DNA of 64,000 bases. Origin: Escherichia phage vB_EcoM_DE7. Within the stretch, counting starts at the first letter, position 1. Each line of letters begins with the position of its first letter. Shown piece by piece: positions 2,877-58,240 of this stretch. The stretch is taken from the sequence record OL825705.1; one strand, written 5' to 3'. The notes beneath the pieces were generated by a model. That model did no database searches. It saw nothing but the letters and a program-made list of their open reading frames with translations, and had not been told where the DNA came from. Position numbers and translations under genes: made by a program.

Positions 2877-3450
2877 AAAAGGTCTAGTTAGAACCTTAGT
2901 GGATGTTATTGGTCACAGACTAGCTCGTGATAAGAATAATAGACCAAACGTAATTAGAGCTTACCCTTCTGATAACTCAAATGACAAAGGTTTAAAACCT
3001 GACCAGCCATTTATTACCGTATATTGTCAAGATGCTGCAACACCTTATGGTTGGGTTCTTGATAAGTTTGTTGAGGATGATGTAGTTTGCTACAGAATTG
3101 CTTTTCAGATTCCAGTGTTAATTATGGTGAATGGTAAAGGTGCTCACAGTATTATGCTTGAGCTTAAACAACGATTAGAGATGAGTTCAGTCAGAGATTT
3201 AATCCTTGAAGAAACAGGAGCTACAGTACTAGACACTGGAGCAATCCCTAATGATTATACTTATCTCAATACAGATTTCGAAAATTCTGCACCTCTTGTT
3301 GTAACTCTTGTAAAAAACTCAGTCCTGAAAGATGAGCGTGGAAGTATTATTGAGCGTGTCATTGTTGATGGTGAGTTAGTTTATGAAGAAGGACAAGAGC
3401 CACCAGAATATATTATCCATCTAGATGTAGACTCCAAAGGGGTAAAATAA
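2851..3450 (+). CDS. tail completion/sheath terminator-like protein (hypothetical)
   Basis: 199-aa ORF immediately upstream of sheath-sized ORF. Confidence 0.25.
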   Translation: MQLETAELEKGLVRTLVDVIGHRLARDKNNRPNVIRAYPSDNSNDKGLKPDQPFITVYCQDAATPYGWVLDKFVEDDVVCYRIAFQIPVLIMVNGKGAHSIMLELKQRLEMSSVRDLILEETGATVLDTGAIPNDYTYLNTDFENSAPLVVTLVKNSVLKDERGSIIERVIVDGELVYEEGQEPPEYIIHLDVDSKGVK

Positions 3451-4803
3451 ATGTGGAATCCAATTGTTAATGTAGATATTACATTGAACACCGCAGGAAC
3501 TACAAGAGAAGGTTTTGGTTTACCACTATTCTTAGCTTCAACAGATAACTTTGAAGAAAGAGTACGTGGCTACACTTCCTTAACTGAAGTTGCTGAAGAT
3601 TTCGATGAGAATACTGCTGCATATAAGGCTGCTAAACAACTTTGGAGTCAGACTCCTAAAGTAACTCAGCTTTATATTGGTAGACGTGCTATGCAGTACA
3701 CTGTATCAATTCCTGATGCCGTTACCGAAAGTACAGACTACTCGATTACTGTAGCTGCTGGCGGTGGAATTTCTCAACCATACCAGTATACAGCGCAAGA
3801 CTCAGACACTGCTGAAGTAGTGTTGCAACAGTTTAAAACACAGATTGAAGCTGACCCAACAATCAAAGATAAGGTTTCTGTGAACGTAACTGGTAGTGGT
3901 GCTTCTACCACAATGGTTATTACCAAAGCTGGTGATAATGACTTTGTGAAGGTAACAACTACAGCACAGACTGTATATATCGCAAGTACAACTGCTGATA
4001 CAGCATCAACTGCTCTGGCAGCTATTGAAGCTTATTCTACTGACTGGTATTTCATCGCAGCAGAAGACAGAACTCAACAGTTTGTCTTAGCAATGGCTTC
4101 TGAGATTCAGGCTCGTAAGAAAATCTTCTTCACTGCTAACTCTGATGTAGCAGCACTGCAAGGTACAGAATTAAACAGTGCAAATGATGTTCCAGCACAG
4201 CTTGCTAAGAACATGTACACCCGTACAGTTTGCTTGTGGCATCACACAGCAGCAGAAGACTATCCAGAGATGGCATACATTGCTTATGGTGCTCCATATG
4301 ATGCAGGGTCAATTGCTTGGGGTAATGCTCAGTTAACTGGTGTAGCTGCTTCTCTGCAGCCATCTAATCACAGACCTTTGACAAGTATTCAGAAGTCAGC
4401 TTTAGATGCACGTCACTGTAACTTTATTGACCTTGATGGTGGTGTTCCAGTGGTTCGTAGAGGGATTACTTCTGGTGGGGAATGGGTTGATATCATCCGT
4501 GGTGTTGACTGGTTAGAATCAGACCTGAAAACTTCTCTGAGAGACTTGCTAATTAACCAGAAGGGTGGTAAGATTACTTATGATGATACTGGTATTACCC
4601 GTATTCGTCAAGTCATTGAAACCTCTCTGCAAAGAGCAGTCAACAGAAACTTCCTGTCATCTTACACAGTTAATGTTCCTAAAGCCTCTCAAGTTGCTTT
4701 AGCAGACAAGAAAGCTCGTATCCTGAAAGATGTTACCTTCGCAGGTGTCTTAGCAGGTGCTATCTTGGATGTTGACTTGAAAGGTACAGTGGCTTACGAA
4801 TAA
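3451..4803 (+). CDS. tail sheath protein
   Basis: 450-aa ORF followed by a 148-aa tube-sized ORF, chaperone pair and tape measure: canonical contractile-tail gene order. Confidence 0.5.
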   Translation: MWNPIVNVDITLNTAGTTREGFGLPLFLASTDNFEERVRGYTSLTEVAEDFDENTAAYKAAKQLWSQTPKVTQLYIGRRAMQYTVSIPDAVTESTDYSITVAAGGGISQPYQYTAQDSDTAEVVLQQFKTQIEADPTIKDKVSVNVTGSGASTTMVITKAGDNDFVKVTTTAQTVYIASTTADTASTALAAIEAYSTDWYFIAAEDRTQQFVLAMASEIQARKKIFFTANSDVAALQGTELNSANDVPAQLAKNMYTRTVCLWHHTAAEDYPEMAYIAYGAPYDAGSIAWGNAQLTGVAASLQPSNHRPLTSIQKSALDARHCNFIDLDGGVPVVRRGITSGGEWVDIIRGVDWLESDLKTSLRDLLINQKGGKITYDDTGITRIRQVIETSLQRAVNRNFLSSYTVNVPKASQVALADKKARILKDVTFAGVLAGAILDVDLKGTVAYE

Positions 4804-5979: not shown

Positions 5980-14013
<8,034 letters not shown>

Positions 14014-17704: not shown

Positions 17705-17902
17705 ATGCCTACAATCCTAGCAATTCTTCTAAAAAATCTAGGTAGCTTCTTCTGGAAACTCATTTTATCCCTTCTAAGTGAATACATGATTGAGAAAGTG
17801 TTCTTTAGGCTTGCAAGATACCTTGCGAGTAAAACAGACACACCTATTGATGATGAGTTCGTAGATAACTTAGAAAAAGCTTTTAAGGGGGAGAATAAAT
17901 GA
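17705..17902 (+). CDS. small membrane protein (possible lysis/holin-like)
   Basis: 65 aa with hydrophobic N-terminal segment, SD GAGGTGA. Confidence 0.3.
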   Translation: MPTILAILLKNLGSFFWKLILSLLSEYMIEKVFFRLARYLASKTDTPIDDEFVDNLEKAFKGENK

Positions 17903-18270
17903 AGTGGCTAGAGGAGGCTTTTAAAAATAATATTGGTGCAATTGTAGTTGGTATTCTTAGTGTTATTGGGATGTATACCACCATGCAAGTTTCGGAAGGT
18001 AAACAAGAAGTGTCTATCACAACAAAATTACAGCAGTTAGATAATTATTCCAAAAGTAATTATTCAGCTATTCGTGATTTACAGTCTGATATGAGGCTGC
18101 TTCAGCTAGGGATGGAGAACCAGAAAGTCCAGTTAGAGAATGTTAAGGGTGAGAACGCAAAACTTACTAAAACCCTTGATAAATTCTCTGACAGTGTGAA
18201 CAATCTGGCTCAATCAGTATCAGCCCTCCAAGCTATTACTGAAAAGAACACAAAGAATACTGAAAAGTAA
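17899..18270 (+). CDS. membrane-anchored coiled-coil protein
   Basis: 123 aa; N-terminal TM (IGAIVVGILSVIGMY) then heptad-rich region. Confidence 0.3.
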   Translation: MKWLEEAFKNNIGAIVVGILSVIGMYTTMQVSEGKQEVSITTKLQQLDNYSKSNYSAIRDLQSDMRLLQLGMENQKVQLENVKGENAKLTKTLDKFSDSVNNLAQSVSALQAITEKNTKNTEK

Positions 18271-53470: not shown

Positions 53471-54019
53471 ATGAAGAAGTTGATTCTAGGTTTGTGCTTA
53501 ATGTTTACAGCACACTTATCTTATGCAGTTGACTGCCCAGAGCTATCAATTAGCCAAAAAGTTAACATGTTAAAAGCTTACCAGTATGGTGAGAATAATA
53601 TGGGGAAGGGCTGGGGTATTACTCTAGCAGCTATAGCCTTACAAGAGTCAGAGTTAGGTCTGAAGGTAGAGAATAAAAAGACCCATGACTATGGTATTTT
53701 CCAGAATCACTTGAAGACTGTTGTAAAGCGTAACAAAATCAGTCCTAATGTGGCTAAAAAGAAACTCTTAAAAGACTTTGACTATGCTGCAAAGGAAACA
53801 CACAAAGAGCTTGAGTTTTGGACTAAGGTACATGGTCAACCAAAGTCAAAGAAGACTTTACAAAAAGTTTTAGCGTCATATAATGCTGGGTATTCGTACA
53901 AAATCCCTAAAGCTAAGAAATACTCTCAAGATGTTTACAACAATATGAAAGTCATCGCTCAATGTGAATTTGCAACAAACATTTCTAAGGTAAACCATGA
54001 AAAAATTAAGAAAGTCTGA
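53471..54019 (+). CDS. secreted lytic transglycosylase-like protein (possible endolysin)
   Basis: Signal-peptide-like N-terminus MKKLILGLCLMFTAHLSYA; SLT-like AIALQESELG ... YGIFQ. Confidence 0.4.
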   Translation: MKKLILGLCLMFTAHLSYAVDCPELSISQKVNMLKAYQYGENNMGKGWGITLAAIALQESELGLKVENKKTHDYGIFQNHLKTVVKRNKISPNVAKKKLLKDFDYAAKETHKELEFWTKVHGQPKSKKTLQKVLASYNAGYSYKIPKAKKYSQDVYNNMKVIAQCEFATNISKVNHEKIKKV

Positions 54020-54692
54020 TGAAGTACTGTGTCATGCTTATGACTTACATCCTCATGAGTTAGGCCTTGATTCCTGTGTATGGACCCCAGAACAGTGCAG
54101 AGATTTTGAAGATACTGCAAGAGAGGTTGTATGCTCACTTGAAGAGTTCCACACATCAGAATCAATTGTGAACGTTGTGGACAAAGAGACTGGACAATCT
54201 ATAGGTGTAAGACGTGACAGTTTAGTCATAGTCAATAAAGACCTTGTAGAAAAAGGTAACCTCATCTTAGCAGATATTGATGGTGTTCTTACAAATTTTA
54301 ATCACGAAGATTACTCAACGGAATTGATTGATGGGTCATTTTCACAGTACACTAATTTGCTTGACTCTGTAAGAGCAAAACCAACGTATGTTTTCAATAT
54401 TATTGATGCAATTGCTAACCATGCTGCCATTGGACTCTTGACAGCGAGGGGTGAATCTCAGAGAATACCTACTGAGATGTTTTTAAGGCATTACATAGAG
54501 CATGATTACATGCTTTTTATGCGTGGTTTTGGAACTAACTCGATAAATGCAGAAAGTTTGAAAGTGAGGATGATTCAGTCTTGCATTATTCCTTACTTTA
54601 ATATAGTATGCTTTATAGAAGATACAGAGAAGAATGTTCAGAAGGTAAACAGAATCCTTCCACACATCAAAACCATGTTAGTTAAACATTGA
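53997..54692 (+). CDS. HAD-superfamily phosphatase-like protein
   Basis: HAD motif I ILADIDGVLTN and downstream FIEDTEKN. Confidence 0.5.
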   Translation: MKKLRKSDEVLCHAYDLHPHELGLDSCVWTPEQCRDFEDTAREVVCSLEEFHTSESIVNVVDKETGQSIGVRRDSLVIVNKDLVEKGNLILADIDGVLTNFNHEDYSTELIDGSFSQYTNLLDSVRAKPTYVFNIIDAIANHAAIGLLTARGESQRIPTEMFLRHYIEHDYMLFMRGFGTNSINAESLKVRMIQSCIIPYFNIVCFIEDTEKNVQKVNRILPHIKTMLVKH

Positions 54693-54703
54693 GAGAAAAA
54701 CTT

Positions 54704-55168
54704 ATGAACAATATCATTACGGTAGCACTGGACGTCACAGCAAACAAATCTGAAGTAGTTCGTAACATTATCAAGAACAACTTTGAGGGTAAAATCTTCC
54801 GTGCTGTCAACGTAAAAGCAGATGGTAACATTCGAGAGTATCGTGCCCTTTTGAATGTTAAGAAACACGTAAAAGGCGCTGGTTCAACGACTGCACACAA
54901 AGAAAACCTGATGACTATCTATGATATGGGTATGGCTTCAGAGTTAGGTGCTGAAGGTATCGTTAAAGAAGGTGCTCCGTATCGCTCTTTCAATCTGGAA
55001 ACTGCTCTTATGCTTTCCTTTACAAGTGGTTCTAAAACAACTACTTATCTCTTTACTGATGCTGCAACGGTATCTGCTATCAAGGATAGCACCGTCAAAG
55101 CTGGGGTAGCTGCTGCTGCAAAAGCTTCTTCGATGGCTGCAAATGTCCTTGCTAAAGTCCTCGGTTAA
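54704..55168 (+). CDS. hypothetical protein
   Basis: Track ORF 54689 trimmed to ATG 54704; 154 aa. Confidence 0.35.
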   Translation: MNNIITVALDVTANKSEVVRNIIKNNFEGKIFRAVNVKADGNIREYRALLNVKKHVKGAGSTTAHKENLMTIYDMGMASELGAEGIVKEGAPYRSFNLETALMLSFTSGSKTTTYLFTDAATVSAIKDSTVKAGVAAAAKASSMAANVLAKVLG

Positions 55169-55180
55169 GGTTAAGATACA

Positions 55181-55205
55181 GGCTCCTTCGGGAGCCTTTT
55201 TCATT
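55181..55205 (+). terminator. rho-independent terminator
   Basis: GGCTCC-TTCG-GGAGCC hairpin followed by TTTTT. Confidence 0.6.
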
Positions 55206-55220
55206 TCAGGAGATTGTTAA

Positions 55221-55568
55221 ATGACATTTAAAGAGTTCTGTCAAGCTACTTTCATAATTGTTTTCTTAGTTGGAGCAGGTGTCTGGGGAGGATACTCTTA
55301 CAGAGACTATCAAGTTGTTGAATCTGAGCTAAACAATGAGAAACTAATCAGTGTTGCTAAAGATGCTTATCAGGAAGGTTTAGCCACACTCAGCACCAAT
55401 TACAAAAATGATTTGAAAGATGTGCTTGCTAAGAATAAGCATACAAAAGAGGTACTAACGTATGAAAAGACTAAGCCAGAGTTTTATAATGTTTGTGTTA
55501 CTGATAATTATGTCAGGGTGTTCAACGAACAAAGTGAACAGTACATTCAAAAACTCCCAAGTAAGTGA
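55221..55568 (+). CDS. i-spanin (Rz-like)
   Basis: N-terminal TM (FIIVFLVGAGVWGGY) followed by charged coiled-coil; overlaps a lipoprotein ORF in another frame. Confidence 0.55.
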   Translation: MTFKEFCQATFIIVFLVGAGVWGGYSYRDYQVVESELNNEKLISVAKDAYQEGLATLSTNYKNDLKDVLAKNKHTKEVLTYEKTKPEFYNVCVTDNYVRVFNEQSEQYIQKLPSK

Positions 55569-55731
55569 GAGTGACAAGTACACTCAAGAAGAGTCAAGAT
55601 TCACTGTCAAAGGCAACACTGGTAGTGATGTGGCAGCAGCCCTTGAGTTTTATCGTGATGGTTTTTACCAGTGCACAATCAAAGCTAATAATCTTATTGA
55701 TATGATTTTATTAGGAAACAAACATCAATGA
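55462..55731 (+). CDS. o-spanin (Rz1-like outer-membrane lipoprotein)
   Basis: Signal peptide with lipobox-like IMSGC; gene starts inside the 3' part of the i-spanin gene in a different frame. Confidence 0.55.
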   Translation: MKRLSQSFIMFVLLIIMSGCSTNKVNSTFKNSQVSESDKYTQEESRFTVKGNTGSDVAAALEFYRDGFYQCTIKANNLIDMILLGNKHQ

Positions 55732-56740: not shown

Positions 56741-57526
56741 ATGGGTATTGTAAAAATAATCAATGGGGATATCTTCTCCGCATTTGATAAAGGTAAGTTT
56801 GATATCATTGGTCACGGTTGCAACTGTATGAACTTAATGGGTGCAGGTATCGCTGACAAGATTTCTAAACTTTACCCAAAAGCATATGAGACTGATACAG
56901 AAGTTTATCTGTATGCAGGTGGTATAGGCCACAAACCCTGTGAAAATTTACTAGGCAATTTCTCTGTAGCACGTTTAGAACAAGGCCGTATAGCTAACCT
57001 TTACACTCAGCTTAAGACTGGTAAAGATGCCCGATACAGTGCTTTAGAGTCATCTTTGAAACAGCTTAACAGATACTGTGGAGTCAATCAGTTGAAGAAA
57101 GTTGGGTTACCTATGATTGGTGCAGGTATCGGTGGACTAGACTCTCAAGCCGTCACAGTCATCATTAATCAGGTGATGAAGAGCGTAGATGTTTACCTGT
57201 ATGTCTACGAGACAGAGATGTACAACGAGTTACACTCAGGTTGGAAGAACTACTGCGAACCGGAATACTTTGCAGGTGTAGTAACGTTCACAGACAATAC
57301 AGTTACCCTCTTCAGACGAAGAAAGGGTAAGGTACATCAAAGTAACCCTCCGGTTGAAAAGATGTCCCTAAGTAACGCTCTAGTTACCCACCTGTCGAAG
57401 AGCAATCACAGAATTGCCGTAACATTTGGCAGTGATGCAGATACATATATCTATGCAAGAACTGATGAGGATGTTGAGGAAATTTTCTCATCATCAGAAG
57501 TTACCTTCTTAGACGCAAAGAACTAA
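56741..57526 (+). CDS. macrodomain protein (TARG1/OARD1-type ADP-ribose hydrolase-like) with C-terminal extension
   Basis: NGDIFSAF ... DIIGHGCNCMNLMGAGIA matches the GDLF ... HC.S ... MGAGIA pattern of OARD1-type macrodomains (from memory). Confidence 0.5.
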   Translation: MGIVKIINGDIFSAFDKGKFDIIGHGCNCMNLMGAGIADKISKLYPKAYETDTEVYLYAGGIGHKPCENLLGNFSVARLEQGRIANLYTQLKTGKDARYSALESSLKQLNRYCGVNQLKKVGLPMIGAGIGGLDSQAVTVIINQVMKSVDVYLYVYETEMYNELHSGWKNYCEPEYFAGVVTFTDNTVTLFRRRKGKVHQSNPPVEKMSLSNALVTHLSKSNHRIAVTFGSDADTYIYARTDEDVEEIFSSSEVTFLDAKN

Positions 57527-57595
57527 GAAACTCTGTAGAATATTCACAATAGACTAAGCCTTTCTTATCTGGTAAATTTTTCAGGTAAGGAGGGC

Positions 57596-57790
57596 TTTTT
57601 CATTTCAGGATTGTGCAGGTAGATTTCTGGACAGAAATCTGTAGAGAGGATTTTGAACTCCAAAGAGAAAATTCATTTTCAAACTGTGCAGGTAATCTCC
57701 AAAGAGCTTTTTCATTTTCAAAACGTGCAGAGAAAAATCAGGTCGGGCAAGAAAAATCATTTTCGAATTGTGCAGGTAGGTGGGTGCAGG
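57596..57790. repeat. iteron-like direct repeat array (4-5 copies of CATTTTCAAAnTGTGCAGGTA)
   Basis: Copies at ~57601, ~57673, ~57714, ~57759 plus a GTGCAGGTGGGG extension; spacing 41-72 bp; non-coding. Confidence 0.6.
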
Positions 57791-57954
57791 TGGGGATGTC
57801 GCCATTTCTCACAAGGCTACCACATCTAGAAATAAAAGTCAACAGAAAAATTTGTAGCGGCTTGAAAAATAATTCTTGATTGTAGTTCTGTTTTGTGGTA
57901 GTCGCGTGCGCCCGTTTCATTACATTTTTGCCAAAAATATTTTTAAAATTTTTA

Positions 57955-58048
57955 TTGACTCCTCGAACGGGTTTTTATAGTATTTGCATCAACGGGGAGG
58001 GAATGACCTTCCCCACTAAGTAAAACCCTTAAACTAGGAGATTCAAAA
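57955..58048 (+). promoter_or_regulatory. type-1 leader cassette: promoter (TTGACT-17-TAGTAT) + conserved hairpin leader + RBS
   Basis: Core ATCAACGGGGAGGGAATGACCTTCCCCACTAAGTAAAACCCTTAAACTAGGAGATTCAAAA ends at ATG 58049. Confidence 0.6.
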
Positions 58049-58240
58049 ATGGCATCAAGAAAAATCAAAGTTGGCGACGAGGTTAACGTAAAACATGAAT
58101 ACTCTTACAAAATGTTAACTATTCGCTCTTACAAGGTTTATCAGGTGGAAGCTATCCACGAAGATGGAACATTTTCACTAAAAGGATATAGCGAACGTTT
58201 CCCTGCTGAATTGTTCGAAAAATGGAGTACTAAAAAATGA
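58049..58240 (+). CDS. small hypothetical protein (63 aa)
   Basis: ORF begins directly after a type-1 leader. Confidence 0.45.
   Translation: MASRKIKVGDEVNVKHEYSYKMLTIRSYKVYQVEAIHEDGTFSLKGYSERFPAELFEKWSTKK

What the first reader, a model, noticed from the sequence alone, without database searches (positions are those of the whole stretch)
55221..55731. Overlapped spanin pair next to a HAD phosphatase, without an adjacent canonical endolysin or holin
An Rz-like ORF with an N-terminal TM segment contains, in another frame, the start of a lipoprotein ORF with a lipobox-like IMSGC. The nearest lysis-type genes are a secreted SLT-like protein 1.2 kb upstream (53471..54019) and two membrane proteins at 17.7-18.3 kb, so the lysis functions appear dispersed. 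The HAD phosphatase next to spanins recalls the T4 pseT neighbourhood.
Basis: partly seen in the sequence, partly recalled or inferred. Interest (0 to 1): 0.35.

Follow-up and report, generated by a model that had tools for sequence, protein, structure and literature searches.

The report
Known Felix O1-type overlapped spanin genes
This is the ordinary, already catalogued pair of overlapping spanin genes (the proteins that break the outer membrane at the end of infection) of a Felix O1-like phage, and their position away from the other lysis genes is a published trait of this phage group.

Summary
55221..55568 encodes a 115-aa protein with an N-terminal membrane segment. 55462..55731, in the +1 frame and overlapping it by 107 nt, encodes an 89-aa lipoprotein precursor (lipobox IMSGC, Cys20, Ser at +2).

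The window is a Felixounavirus genome, 96.9% identical to Salmonella phage BPS17W1. GenBank and RefSeq records annotate the same two genes as i-spanin and o-spanin. Kongari et al. 2018 list the Felix O1 pair as "overlapped", with the same 348-nt gene, 107-nt overlap and ribosome-binding sites, in their "JH2" family.

- Both frames are under purifying selection.
- The lipobox Cys and one periplasmic Cys per protein are invariant across five phage lineages.
- In Proteus phage RS10pmA the homologous pair follows a holin and an endolysin gene.

Scattered lysis genes in Felix O1-like phages are published. The endolysin lies outside this window, and the putative class III holin is at 17899..18270.

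The T4 pseT parallel holds for gene neighbourhood only. The spanins show no detectable sequence similarity to T4 PseT.3/PseT.2, and one ORF plus a terminator separate the HAD gene from the i-spanin.

Verdict: real, well supported, already known, low interest. No member of this spanin family appears to have been tested experimentally.

The parts
55180..55197 (+). Intrinsic-terminator hairpin (AGGCTCCTTCGGGAGCCT followed by a T run) directly upstream of the i-spanin gene. It corresponds to terminator t5 of Felix O1.
   Evidence: Terminator scan. The same sequence is listed as t5 in Whichard 2010 Table 2. Citrobacter phage Mordin has a terminator annotated at the same place.
55208..55212 (+). Shine-Dalgarno sequence AGGAG of the i-spanin gene
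   Evidence: Sequence read. The 24-nt upstream string is identical to the one recorded for Felix01 p014 in the Kongari 2018 supplement.
55221..55568 (+). i-spanin gene (115 aa). N-terminal membrane segment at about residues 6-24, periplasmic domain about residues 28-115, periplasmic Cys92, conserved C-terminal motif YEKTKPxFYNxCxxDxYxxxFNE.
   Evidence: ORF list. Hydropathy. PHROG 1152 'Rz-like spanin', E 9.9e-41. 96.5% identical to Felix O1 ORF6, the i-spanin of the Kongari JH2 family. dN/dS 0.09-0.14. Invariant C92, E82, K83, N90 and F101-N102-E103 across 8 sequences from five lineages.
55236..55292 (+). Region coding the predicted transmembrane segment of the i-spanin (residues 6-24)
   Evidence: Kyte-Doolittle 19-residue maximum of 1.75 at residues 6-24. 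Every homologue examined has an N-terminal hydrophobic segment.
55448..55453 (+). Shine-Dalgarno sequence AGAGGT of the o-spanin gene, inside the i-spanin coding sequence
   Evidence: Sequence read. The Kongari 2018 supplement marks the same site for Felix01 p015.
55462..55731 (+). o-spanin gene (89-aa precursor, 70-aa mature lipoprotein), in the +1 frame relative to the i-spanin. Signal peptide residues 1-19, lipobox IMSG|C, acylated Cys20, Ser21, periplasmic Cys71.
   Evidence: ORF list. Lipobox test. Annotated as o-spanin in many records. 93% identical to Felix O1 ORF7, the o-spanin of the JH2 family. Synonymous sites are near saturation while dN is 0.13-0.15 in this frame only. C20, S21 and C71 are invariant.
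55462..55568 (+). 107-nt dual-coding overlap. It encodes the conserved C-terminal motif of the i-spanin and, in the +1 frame, the signal peptide and first mature residues of the o-spanin.
   Evidence: Coordinates. Nucleotide identity to Mordin/SUSP1 is 0.88-0.89 here against 0.72-0.78 in the single-coding flanks, and synonymous change is suppressed in both frames.
55519..55521 (+). Codon TGT for Cys20 of the o-spanin, the predicted lipid-attachment site
   Evidence: Sequence read. Invariant in 8 of 8 homologues from five lineages.
53471..54019 (+). Context gene: secreted Vs.1-like protein with weak similarity to lytic transglycosylases. Not shown to belong to the lysis system.
   Evidence: BLASTP to T4 Vs.1, 32% identity, E 2e-16. 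Pfam SLT 18.8 bits, below the 21.3 cut-off. PHROG 600, unknown function.
53997..54692 (+). Context gene: stand-alone HAD phosphatase related to the 3'-phosphatase domain of T4 PseT. Contains the motif DIDGVLT.
   Evidence: PHROG 3970 plus weaker matches to the C-terminal part of PseT-type profiles. Weak alignment to T4 PseT residues 158-289.
54689..55168 (+). Context gene: ORF5 homologue of unknown function, lying between the HAD gene and the spanins
   Evidence: ORF list. PHROG 2267, unknown function. Felix O1 ORF5.
17899..18270 (+). Distant lysis partner: putative class III holin (123 aa, one N-terminal membrane segment), about 37 kb from the spanins
   Evidence: 96.7% identical to BPS17W1 gp078 'holin'. 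Annotated as holin or putative holin in Moogle, SUSP2, HMD-P8 and others. PHROG 4038 is listed as unknown function.

Best explanation
These are the two-component spanin genes of a Felix O1-like myophage. They have the 'overlapped' architecture and belong to the JH2 family of Kongari et al. 2018.

Inferred mechanism, taken from the lambda Rz/Rz1 and T4 PseT.3/PseT.2 paradigms:
- The 115-aa product inserts into the inner membrane by its N-terminal segment, with its C-terminal domain in the periplasm.
- The 89-aa product is exported, acylated on Cys20 and cleaved by signal peptidase II. Because residue +2 is Ser and not Asp, it is sorted to the inner leaflet of the outer membrane.
- The two periplasmic domains bind, and homotypic disulfides form through Cys92 and Cys71. 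The resulting complexes span the periplasm through the peptidoglycan mesh.
- The holin and the soluble lysozyme are encoded elsewhere in the genome. Once they have destroyed the peptidoglycan, the freed complexes fuse the inner and outer membranes and complete lysis.

Shown here: gene structure, sorting signals, dual-frame purifying selection, conservation of the key residues, family membership, and the cassette context of a homologue. Inferred: topology, lipidation, complex formation and membrane fusion.
For: - Anatomy: N-terminal membrane segment, lipobox with Cys20, +1 frame and 107-nt overlap, each gene with its own ribosome-binding site.
- PHROG 1152 'Rz-like spanin', E 9.9e-41, for the i-spanin. 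A weak match to PHROG 456 'Rz-like spanin', E 6.7e-5, for the o-spanin.
- 257 phage records carry the locus. Many annotate an i-spanin/o-spanin pair at identical coordinates, including RefSeq BPS17W1, Mordin and SUSP1.
- The Kongari 2018 supplement lists Felix01 p014/p015 as overlapped, with a 348-nt gene and 107-nt overlap, in family JH2, with one periplasmic Cys in each protein.
- Purifying selection in each frame: dN/dS about 0.1 in the correct frame against values mostly above 1 (0.70-4.1) in the wrong frames. Nucleotide conservation is raised in the overlap.
- The same architecture, with Cys at position 20 or 21 followed by Ser, occurs in Mooglevirus, Suspvirus, Kolesnikvirus, Kuravirus/Nieuwekanaalvirus and Gorganvirus. 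The lipobox Cys and one periplasmic Cys per protein are invariant.
- In Proteus phage RS10pmA the homologous pair directly follows a holin (PHROG 198) and an endolysin (PHROG 465).
- T4 is a precedent for functional spanins encoded away from the holin and endolysin and near pseT.
- The i-spanin gene of Felix O1 (ORF6) is transcribed, with its maximum at 25 min in the same class as the lysin ORF35.
Against: - I found no experimental test of any JH2-family spanin in the papers searched. All assignments are bioinformatic.
- The mature o-spanin has no proline at all. Kongari's tables report no predicted coiled coil in the i-spanin. It therefore lacks the two features that are mutationally critical in lambda Rz and Rz1.
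- There are no Pfam hits for either protein and no detectable similarity to T4 PseT.3/PseT.2.
- The genes sit in an rII / early-gene neighbourhood behind a terminator with no recognisable promoter, so how and when they are expressed is unclear.
Confidence: 0.9

Rival explanations
1. The +1-frame ORF (55462..55731) is a chance open frame. Only the 115-aa membrane protein is real.
For: Some records do not annotate it, or annotate it from an internal start that lacks the lipobox (HMD-P8). Two comparative papers report 'only i-spanin' or 'only o-spanin' in some genomes.
Against: In the part downstream of the i-spanin stop, 24-27 of about 31 synonymous sites differ between the window and Mordin/SUSP1, while dN is 0.14-0.15. 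Reading the same DNA in the other two frames gives dN/dS of 2.3-2.9. The ORF, its start context, Cys20-Ser21 and Cys71 are kept at 27-34% protein identity in four other lineages. The missing annotations reflect the gene-caller bias against overlapping genes that Kongari 2018 describe.
Confidence: 0.02
2. The pair are envelope proteins with a role other than lysis. They could act in superinfection exclusion, lysis inhibition or receptor masking, like T4 Imm/Sp/RI or Cor-type lipoproteins. That would explain their position in the early rII region.
For: They lie next to rIIA/rIIB and other homologues of T4 early genes, Vs.1 and Tk.4. They are far from the endolysin and holin. They lack the proline-rich region and predicted coiled coils. 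No functional test was found.
Against: An inner-membrane protein paired with an overlapping outer-membrane lipoprotein gene in the +1 frame is the spanin signature. Homologues sit in a holin, endolysin, i-spanin, o-spanin cassette in RS10pmA. T4's proven spanins are also in an early-gene region near pseT. No other spanin candidate is annotated in the complete BPS17W1 genome, although a Gram-negative host requires outer-membrane disruption.
Confidence: 0.05
3. The secreted Vs.1/SLT-like protein, the HAD phosphatase and the spanins form one local lysis module, in which the Vs.1-like protein supplies the muralytic step.
For: The Vs.1-like protein has a signal peptide and E-S, G-I-F-Q and S-Y-N-A-G motifs that resemble family-1 lytic transglycosylases (sequence read). 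It has a weak Pfam SLT match. The gene order is conserved across Ounavirinae.
Against: The Pfam score is below the curated cut-off, and a sequence search of the PDB found no homologue. A terminator and an unrelated ORF separate it from the spanins. In Kolesnikvirus three more genes are inserted between them, and in HMD-P8 two. The genome has a canonical soluble lysozyme elsewhere. The Gordonclarkvirinae and Gorganvirus homologues of the spanins have no Vs.1-like neighbour.
Confidence: 0.03

Closest known systems
Felix O1 ORF6/ORF7 (Felix01p014/p015), JH2 family of overlapped two-component spanins (Kongari et al. 2018, PMC6139136)
   Same: 96.5% and 93% protein identity. Identical gene lengths (348 and 270 nt), identical 107-nt overlap, the same ribosome-binding sites, the same Cys positions, and the same genomic neighbours: rIIB, Vs.1-like, HAD, ORF5.
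   Different: Only point substitutions, for example lipobox IMSGC here against TMSGC in Felix O1.
T4 PseT.3/PseT.2 spanins
   Same: A two-component i-spanin plus o-spanin of similar sizes (117 and 99 aa). They are encoded away from the holin (t) and endolysin (e), within one gene of pseT, in an early-gene region. They are experimentally proven to replace lambda Rz/Rz1.
   Different: The T4 genes have a separated, not overlapped, architecture and lie on the opposite side of pseT. There is no detectable sequence similarity. In T4 both periplasmic Cys are in the o-spanin and none in the i-spanin; here each protein has one.
Lambda Rz/Rz1 and P2 LysB/LysC
   Same: The same logic: a type II inner-membrane protein plus an outer-membrane lipoprotein encoded in the +1 frame of the same DNA. 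P2 LysB/LysC also has the overlapped architecture. Periplasmic Cys residues are available for homotypic disulfides.
   Different: Lambda Rz1 is fully embedded in Rz, and the lambda and P2 pairs sit in lysis cassettes. Rz has two coiled-coil domains and Rz1 a proline-rich region. Here no coiled coil is predicted, the mature o-spanin has no proline, and neither protein has a Pfam match.
Spanin pair of Proteus phage vB_PmiP_RS10pmA (Gorganvirus)
   Same: Homologous i-spanin (PHROG 1152, E 2.2e-18) and an overlapped o-spanin (30% identity) with the same conserved Cys and C-terminal motifs.
   Different: There the pair is the last element of a canonical holin, endolysin, spanin cassette. Its o-spanin is not annotated in that record.

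Membership tests
Two-component spanin, overlapped architecture (Summer 2007 / Kongari 2018 definition) | The i-spanin is a small protein with a single N-terminal transmembrane segment and a periplasmic C-terminal domain. | tested here: met
   The most hydrophobic 19-mer is residues 6-24, mean 1.75, and the rest of the protein is hydrophilic. All homologues show the same pattern. N-in/C-out topology is inferred, not tested.
Two-component spanin, overlapped architecture (Summer 2007 / Kongari 2018 definition) | The o-spanin has a signal peptidase II signal with a lipobox Cys, and no Asp at +2, giving outer-membrane sorting. | tested here: met
   MKRLSQSFIMFVLLIIMSG|CSTN fits the PROSITE-type pattern, with Cys20 and Ser at +2. 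Cys-Ser is invariant in 8 of 8 homologues. No SignalP or LipoP run was possible.
Two-component spanin, overlapped architecture (Summer 2007 / Kongari 2018 definition) | The o-spanin gene starts inside the i-spanin gene in the +1 frame and extends past its stop codon. | tested here: met
   Start at 55462 inside 55221..55568, a 107-nt overlap, end at 55731. The same arrangement is found in five lineages.
Two-component spanin, overlapped architecture (Summer 2007 / Kongari 2018 definition) | At least one periplasmic Cys is available for a homotypic intermolecular disulfide. | tested here: met
   i-spanin Cys92 and o-spanin Cys71, both invariant. The rule itself is described in Kongari 2018. Disulfide formation was not tested.
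Two-component spanin, overlapped architecture (Summer 2007 / Kongari 2018 definition) | Both reading frames are real genes under purifying selection. | tested here: met
   dN/dS 0.09-0.14 for the i-only part. In the o-only part dS is 0.97 to saturated while dN is 0.04-0.15. Wrong-frame controls are mostly above 1.
Two-component spanin, overlapped architecture (Summer 2007 / Kongari 2018 definition) | Function: required for outer-membrane disruption, and complements lambda Rz/Rz1 mutants. | not testable with these tools
   No experiment on any JH2-family member was found in the papers searched.
JH2 spanin family (Kongari 2018) | Sequence homology of both proteins to listed members (Felix01, FO1a, wV8, Moogle, Mushroom, and others). 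| tested here: met
   96.5% and 93% identity to Felix O1. 76-79% identity to the Mooglevirus phage Mordin (Moogle itself, the listed member, was not compared). The i-spanin also matches the phiEco32-like phage ECBP2, as in the published family list.
T4 PseT.3/PseT.2 spanin family | Sequence homology to PseT.3 and PseT.2. | tested here: not met
   BLASTP E values of 16 and 7.8. The resemblance is in function and position only.
Lambda Rz / Rz1 families | Sequence match to Rz/Rz1 families, coiled-coil domains in the i-spanin and a proline-rich region in the o-spanin. | tested here: not met
   No Pfam family reached its threshold. The mature o-spanin has 0 Pro. Kongari's tables give no predicted coiled coil for Felix01.
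Canonical lysis cassette (holin-endolysin-spanin) | Spanin genes adjacent to the holin and endolysin genes. | tested here: not met
   The putative holin is at 17899..18270 and the endolysin is absent from the window. In BPS17W1 the endolysin lies about 14 kb from the spanins on the circular map. Adjacency is not a defining feature of spanins. The condition is met in the RS10pmA homologue.
T4 PseT polynucleotide kinase/phosphatase (for the neighbouring gene 53997..54692) | N-terminal P-loop 5'-kinase domain plus C-terminal HAD 3'-phosphatase domain (DxDxT). | tested here: inconclusive
   The HAD motif DIDGVLT and PHROG matches to the C-terminal part of PseT profiles are present. I see no GxxxxGK[ST] motif in the 231-aa sequence. 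Only the phosphatase half is therefore supported.

The most novel reading that the evidence does not exclude
The JH2-type spanins may form a structurally different membrane-fusion machine from lambda Rz/Rz1. They have no proline-rich region in the o-spanin, no predicted coiled coil in the i-spanin, and a conserved C-terminal helix-plus-Cys module in each partner. In Ounavirinae they might act together with the conserved neighbouring secreted Vs.1-like transglycosylase, for example to remodel peptidoglycan locally for complex assembly. My evidence excludes none of this, but none of it is positively indicated either.
Probability: 0.07. Interest if true: 0.4.

Novelty: already known. Interest (0 to 1): 0.07.

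Why it matters
It matters little as a discovery. The gene pair, its overlapped architecture, its family assignment and the scattered layout of lysis genes in Felix O1-like phages are all in GenBank/RefSeq annotation and in print: Whichard 2010, Nguyen 2015, Tolen 2015 and Kongari 2018.

Its practical value is for annotation quality. Many Felixounavirus records still call one or both genes 'hypothetical protein', or start the o-spanin after its lipobox, and two comparative papers report the resulting apparent absence at face value (only the i-spanin in vB_Si_DR094, only the o-spanin in SPJ41). The dual-frame selection analysis shows that both genes are present and constrained in the Felix O1-like genomes examined here.

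One small open point remains. No spanin of this family has been tested experimentally, and the family lacks the sequence features that are critical in lambda Rz/Rz1.

Tried and rejected
- Pfam scan of both spanins: only sub-threshold noise.
- BLASTP against T4 PseT.3, PseT.2 and PseT.1: no similarity. The idea that the T4 and Felix O1 spanin-pseT neighbourhoods are homologous by descent is therefore unsupported for the spanins. It does hold for the phosphatase, Vs.1 and Tk.4 genes.
- Single-sequence AlphaFold2 models of both proteins: mean pLDDT 45 and 54, too low to use. At most they hint at a disordered linker (residues 21-52) and a C-terminal helix (54-85) in the o-spanin. No fold search was attempted on them.
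- PDB sequence search with the Vs.1/SLT-like protein: no hit at E up to 1.
- Sigma-70 promoter scan: 20 sites against 16.5 expected, none between the terminator and the i-spanin start, so it says nothing about how the spanins are transcribed.
- Alternative o-spanin starts (Met10, Val12, Met17): rejected. They leave no charged n-region or remove the signal peptide, and only Met1 has a Shine-Dalgarno sequence and is conserved in all lineages.
- The phage collection and the literature already answered the question.

Full report
**Identity of the window**

A 3-kb stretch around the finding matches 257 phage records. Of these, 242 cover at least 80% of it, and nearly all are Felixounavirus phages of Escherichia, Salmonella, Shigella or Citrobacter. 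The best match is Salmonella phage BPS17W1 at 96.9% identity. The window is therefore part of a Felix O1-like myophage genome.

**The observation**

- ORF 55221..55568 (+, 115 aa) and ORF 55462..55731 (+, 89 aa) are both present.
- The second ORF is in the +1 frame of the first and shares 107 nt with it.
- The 115-aa protein has its hydrophobic maximum at residues 6-24.
- The 89-aa protein begins MKRLSQSFIMFVLLIIMSG|CSTN. That is a charged n-region, a hydrophobic core, a lipobox, Cys20 and Ser at +2.
- Each start codon has its own Shine-Dalgarno sequence.
- I applied a loose signal-plus-lipobox pattern to all 327 ORFs of at least 40 aa in the window. It found this ORF and two short antisense ORFs.

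**Are both frames genes?**

I compared the 511-nt locus with Felix O1, Mordin (Mooglevirus) and SUSP1 (Suspvirus), which align without gaps.

- The part read only as i-spanin has dN/dS of 0.09-0.14.
- The part read only as o-spanin has 24-27 of about 31 synonymous sites changed against Mordin/SUSP1, with dN of 0.14-0.15. Against Felix O1 its dN/dS is 0.04.
- Reading the same DNA in the wrong frames gives ratios mostly above 1 (0.70 to 4.1).
- In the overlap, nucleotide identity rises to 0.88-0.89, against 0.72-0.78 in the flanks, and synonymous change is suppressed in both frames. This is what dual coding predicts.

**Wider family**

tblastn finds the o-spanin in 312 phage records and the i-spanin in 401. 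I extracted the pairs from these lineages:

- Felixounavirus
- Mooglevirus and Suspvirus
- Kolesnikvirus (phiEa21-4, SeKF_13)
- Gordonclarkvirinae (EP335, ES17)
- the Gorganvirus phage RS10pmA of Proteus

Every one has an i-spanin with an N-terminal hydrophobic segment. Every one also has a +1-frame ORF starting M-[KR]-[KR]-L inside the C-terminal third of the i-spanin, with Cys at position 20 or 21 followed by Ser.

In alignments of eight sequences at down to 26-34% identity, the invariant positions are:

- o-spanin: M1, L4, C20, S21, G54, L61, C71, N76, L78
- i-spanin: M1, G24, E82, K83, N90, C92, F101, N102, E103

So the acylated Cys and one periplasmic Cys per protein never change. This fits the rule that two-component spanins need a homotypic disulfide (Kongari 2018).

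In RS10pmA the pair directly follows a PHROG 198 holin and a PHROG 465 endolysin, forming a canonical cassette. This is the best contextual evidence that the family acts in lysis.

**What was already known**

- GenBank and RefSeq records annotate these exact genes as 'Rz-like spanin' or 'i-spanin' and 'o-spanin'.
- They correspond to Felix O1 ORF6 and ORF7.
- The supplement of Kongari et al. 2018 (PMC6139136) lists Felix01 p014/p015, FO1a and wV8 as 'ovl', with a 348-nt i-spanin gene and a 107-nt overlap. It gives the same upstream strings (tttttcatttcAGGAGattgttaa and agcatacaaaaGAGGTactaacat), one periplasmic Cys each, and family 'JH2'.
- The published JH2 i-spanin family also contains phiEco32-like phages, matching my hits in Gordonclarkvirinae.
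- Whichard et al. 2010 stated that Felix O1 has no holin-lysin cassette and compared this with T4.
- Nguyen et al. 2015 wrote that in Felix O1-like phages the endolysin, the two spanins and the putative holin 'are scattered around the genome'.
- Tolen et al. [quoted passage not shown]

**Where the other lysis genes are**

The BPS17W1 annotation places:

- a holin next to the tail-fibre and thymidylate-synthase genes
- an endolysin about 14 kb from the spanins across the arbitrary record origin

tblastn puts the holin homologue at window 17899..18270 (96.7% identity) and finds no endolysin in the window.

Many records annotate the 123-aa protein as holin or putative holin. However, PHROG lists its family as unknown function, and I found no experiment on it.

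**The neighbourhood**

Upstream of the spanins lie:

- rIIB
- a secreted protein homologous to T4 Vs.1 (32% identity, E 2e-16), with a sub-threshold Pfam SLT match
- a 231-aa HAD phosphatase that matches only the phosphatase half of PseT-type profiles
- ORF5, of unknown function
- a terminator hairpin at 55180..55197, which is t5 of Felix O1

Downstream are several small ORFs and a macro-domain protein homologous to T4 Tk.4 (35% identity, E 3e-24), followed by another terminator.

However, the gene order differs and the spanins share no detectable sequence similarity.

The linkage is also loose. Kolesnikvirus has three extra genes between ORF5 and the i-spanin, and HMD-P8 has a methyltransferase and another gene there.

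**Mechanism**

This is inferred from the lambda and T4 paradigms summarised in Kongari 2018.

1. The i-spanin is anchored in the inner membrane.
2. The o-spanin is lipidated on Cys20 and sent to the outer membrane.
3. Their periplasmic domains associate and are covalently dimerised through Cys92 and Cys71.
4. After the holin-released lysozyme removes the peptidoglycan, the complexes fuse the two membranes.

Felix O1 ORF6 is transcribed with its maximum at 25 min, the same class as the lysin ORF35. No promoter is recognisable between the terminator and the start codon, so read-through or an unknown phage promoter must serve the unit.

**Caveats**

- I found no functional test of a JH2-family spanin.
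- The mature o-spanin has no proline.
- No coiled coil is predicted in the i-spanin.
- The single-sequence structure models were too poor to use.

**Verdict**

The feature is ordinary for this phage genus and already described. Confidence that these are functional spanins is about 0.9. Interest is low.

Noticed in passing
window 57598..57780, inside the non-coding gap 57527..58049: Four direct copies of a motif like TCATTTTCnAAnTGTGCAGGTA, with starts 39-73 nt apart, lie just after terminator 57556..57597. None of 100 shuffles gave four matches. The first copy begins with TTTTTCATTTCAGGA, the same 15 nt that follow the terminator in front of the i-spanin gene (55197..55211). It could be an iteron or regulatory array.
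   Followed up: partly
window 53471..54019: The 'SLT-like' secreted protein is a homologue of T4 Vs.1 (32% identity, E 2e-16). It keeps E-S, G-I-F-Q and S-Y-N-A-G motifs that resemble family-1 lytic transglycosylases. Its Pfam SLT score is below the cut-off, and a sequence search of the PDB found nothing. Function is unknown in both phages.
   Followed up: partly
window 53997..54692: This gene is widely annotated as 'polynucleotide kinase', but it carries only the HAD 3'-phosphatase half (DIDGVLT) and no visible P-loop kinase domain. The product name is probably an over-annotation.
   Followed up: partly
window 56741..57526: A macro-domain protein (Pfam Macro, E 1.2e-6) homologous to T4 Tk.4 (35% identity, E 3e-24), with an extra C-terminal extension of about 100 aa. 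Together with rIIA/rIIB, Vs.1 and the PseT-like phosphatase, this shows that the region is a block of homologues of T4 early genes.
   Followed up: partly
L001 (Salmonella phage HMD-P8) 7820..9528 and 9888..10085: HMD-P8 has a DNA methyltransferase and a hypothetical gene inserted between the ORF5 homologue and the i-spanin. Its o-spanin is annotated from an internal start that removes the signal peptide and lipobox. The full 89-aa ORF with IMSGC is intact.
   Followed up: yes
L009 (Proteus phage RS10pmA) 3501..3740; L007 (EP335) 3501..3761; L012 (ES17) 3212..3472: The overlapped o-spanin homologues in these records are unannotated or mis-annotated as short hypothetical proteins, although the lipobox ORFs are intact.
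   Followed up: yes
window 17705..17902 and 17899..18270: A 65-aa membrane protein (PHROG 402, unknown function) sits immediately upstream of the 123-aa putative class III holin and overlaps it by 4 nt. BPS17W1 annotates only a 37-aa version of it. It could be an antiholin or holin partner.
   Followed up: no
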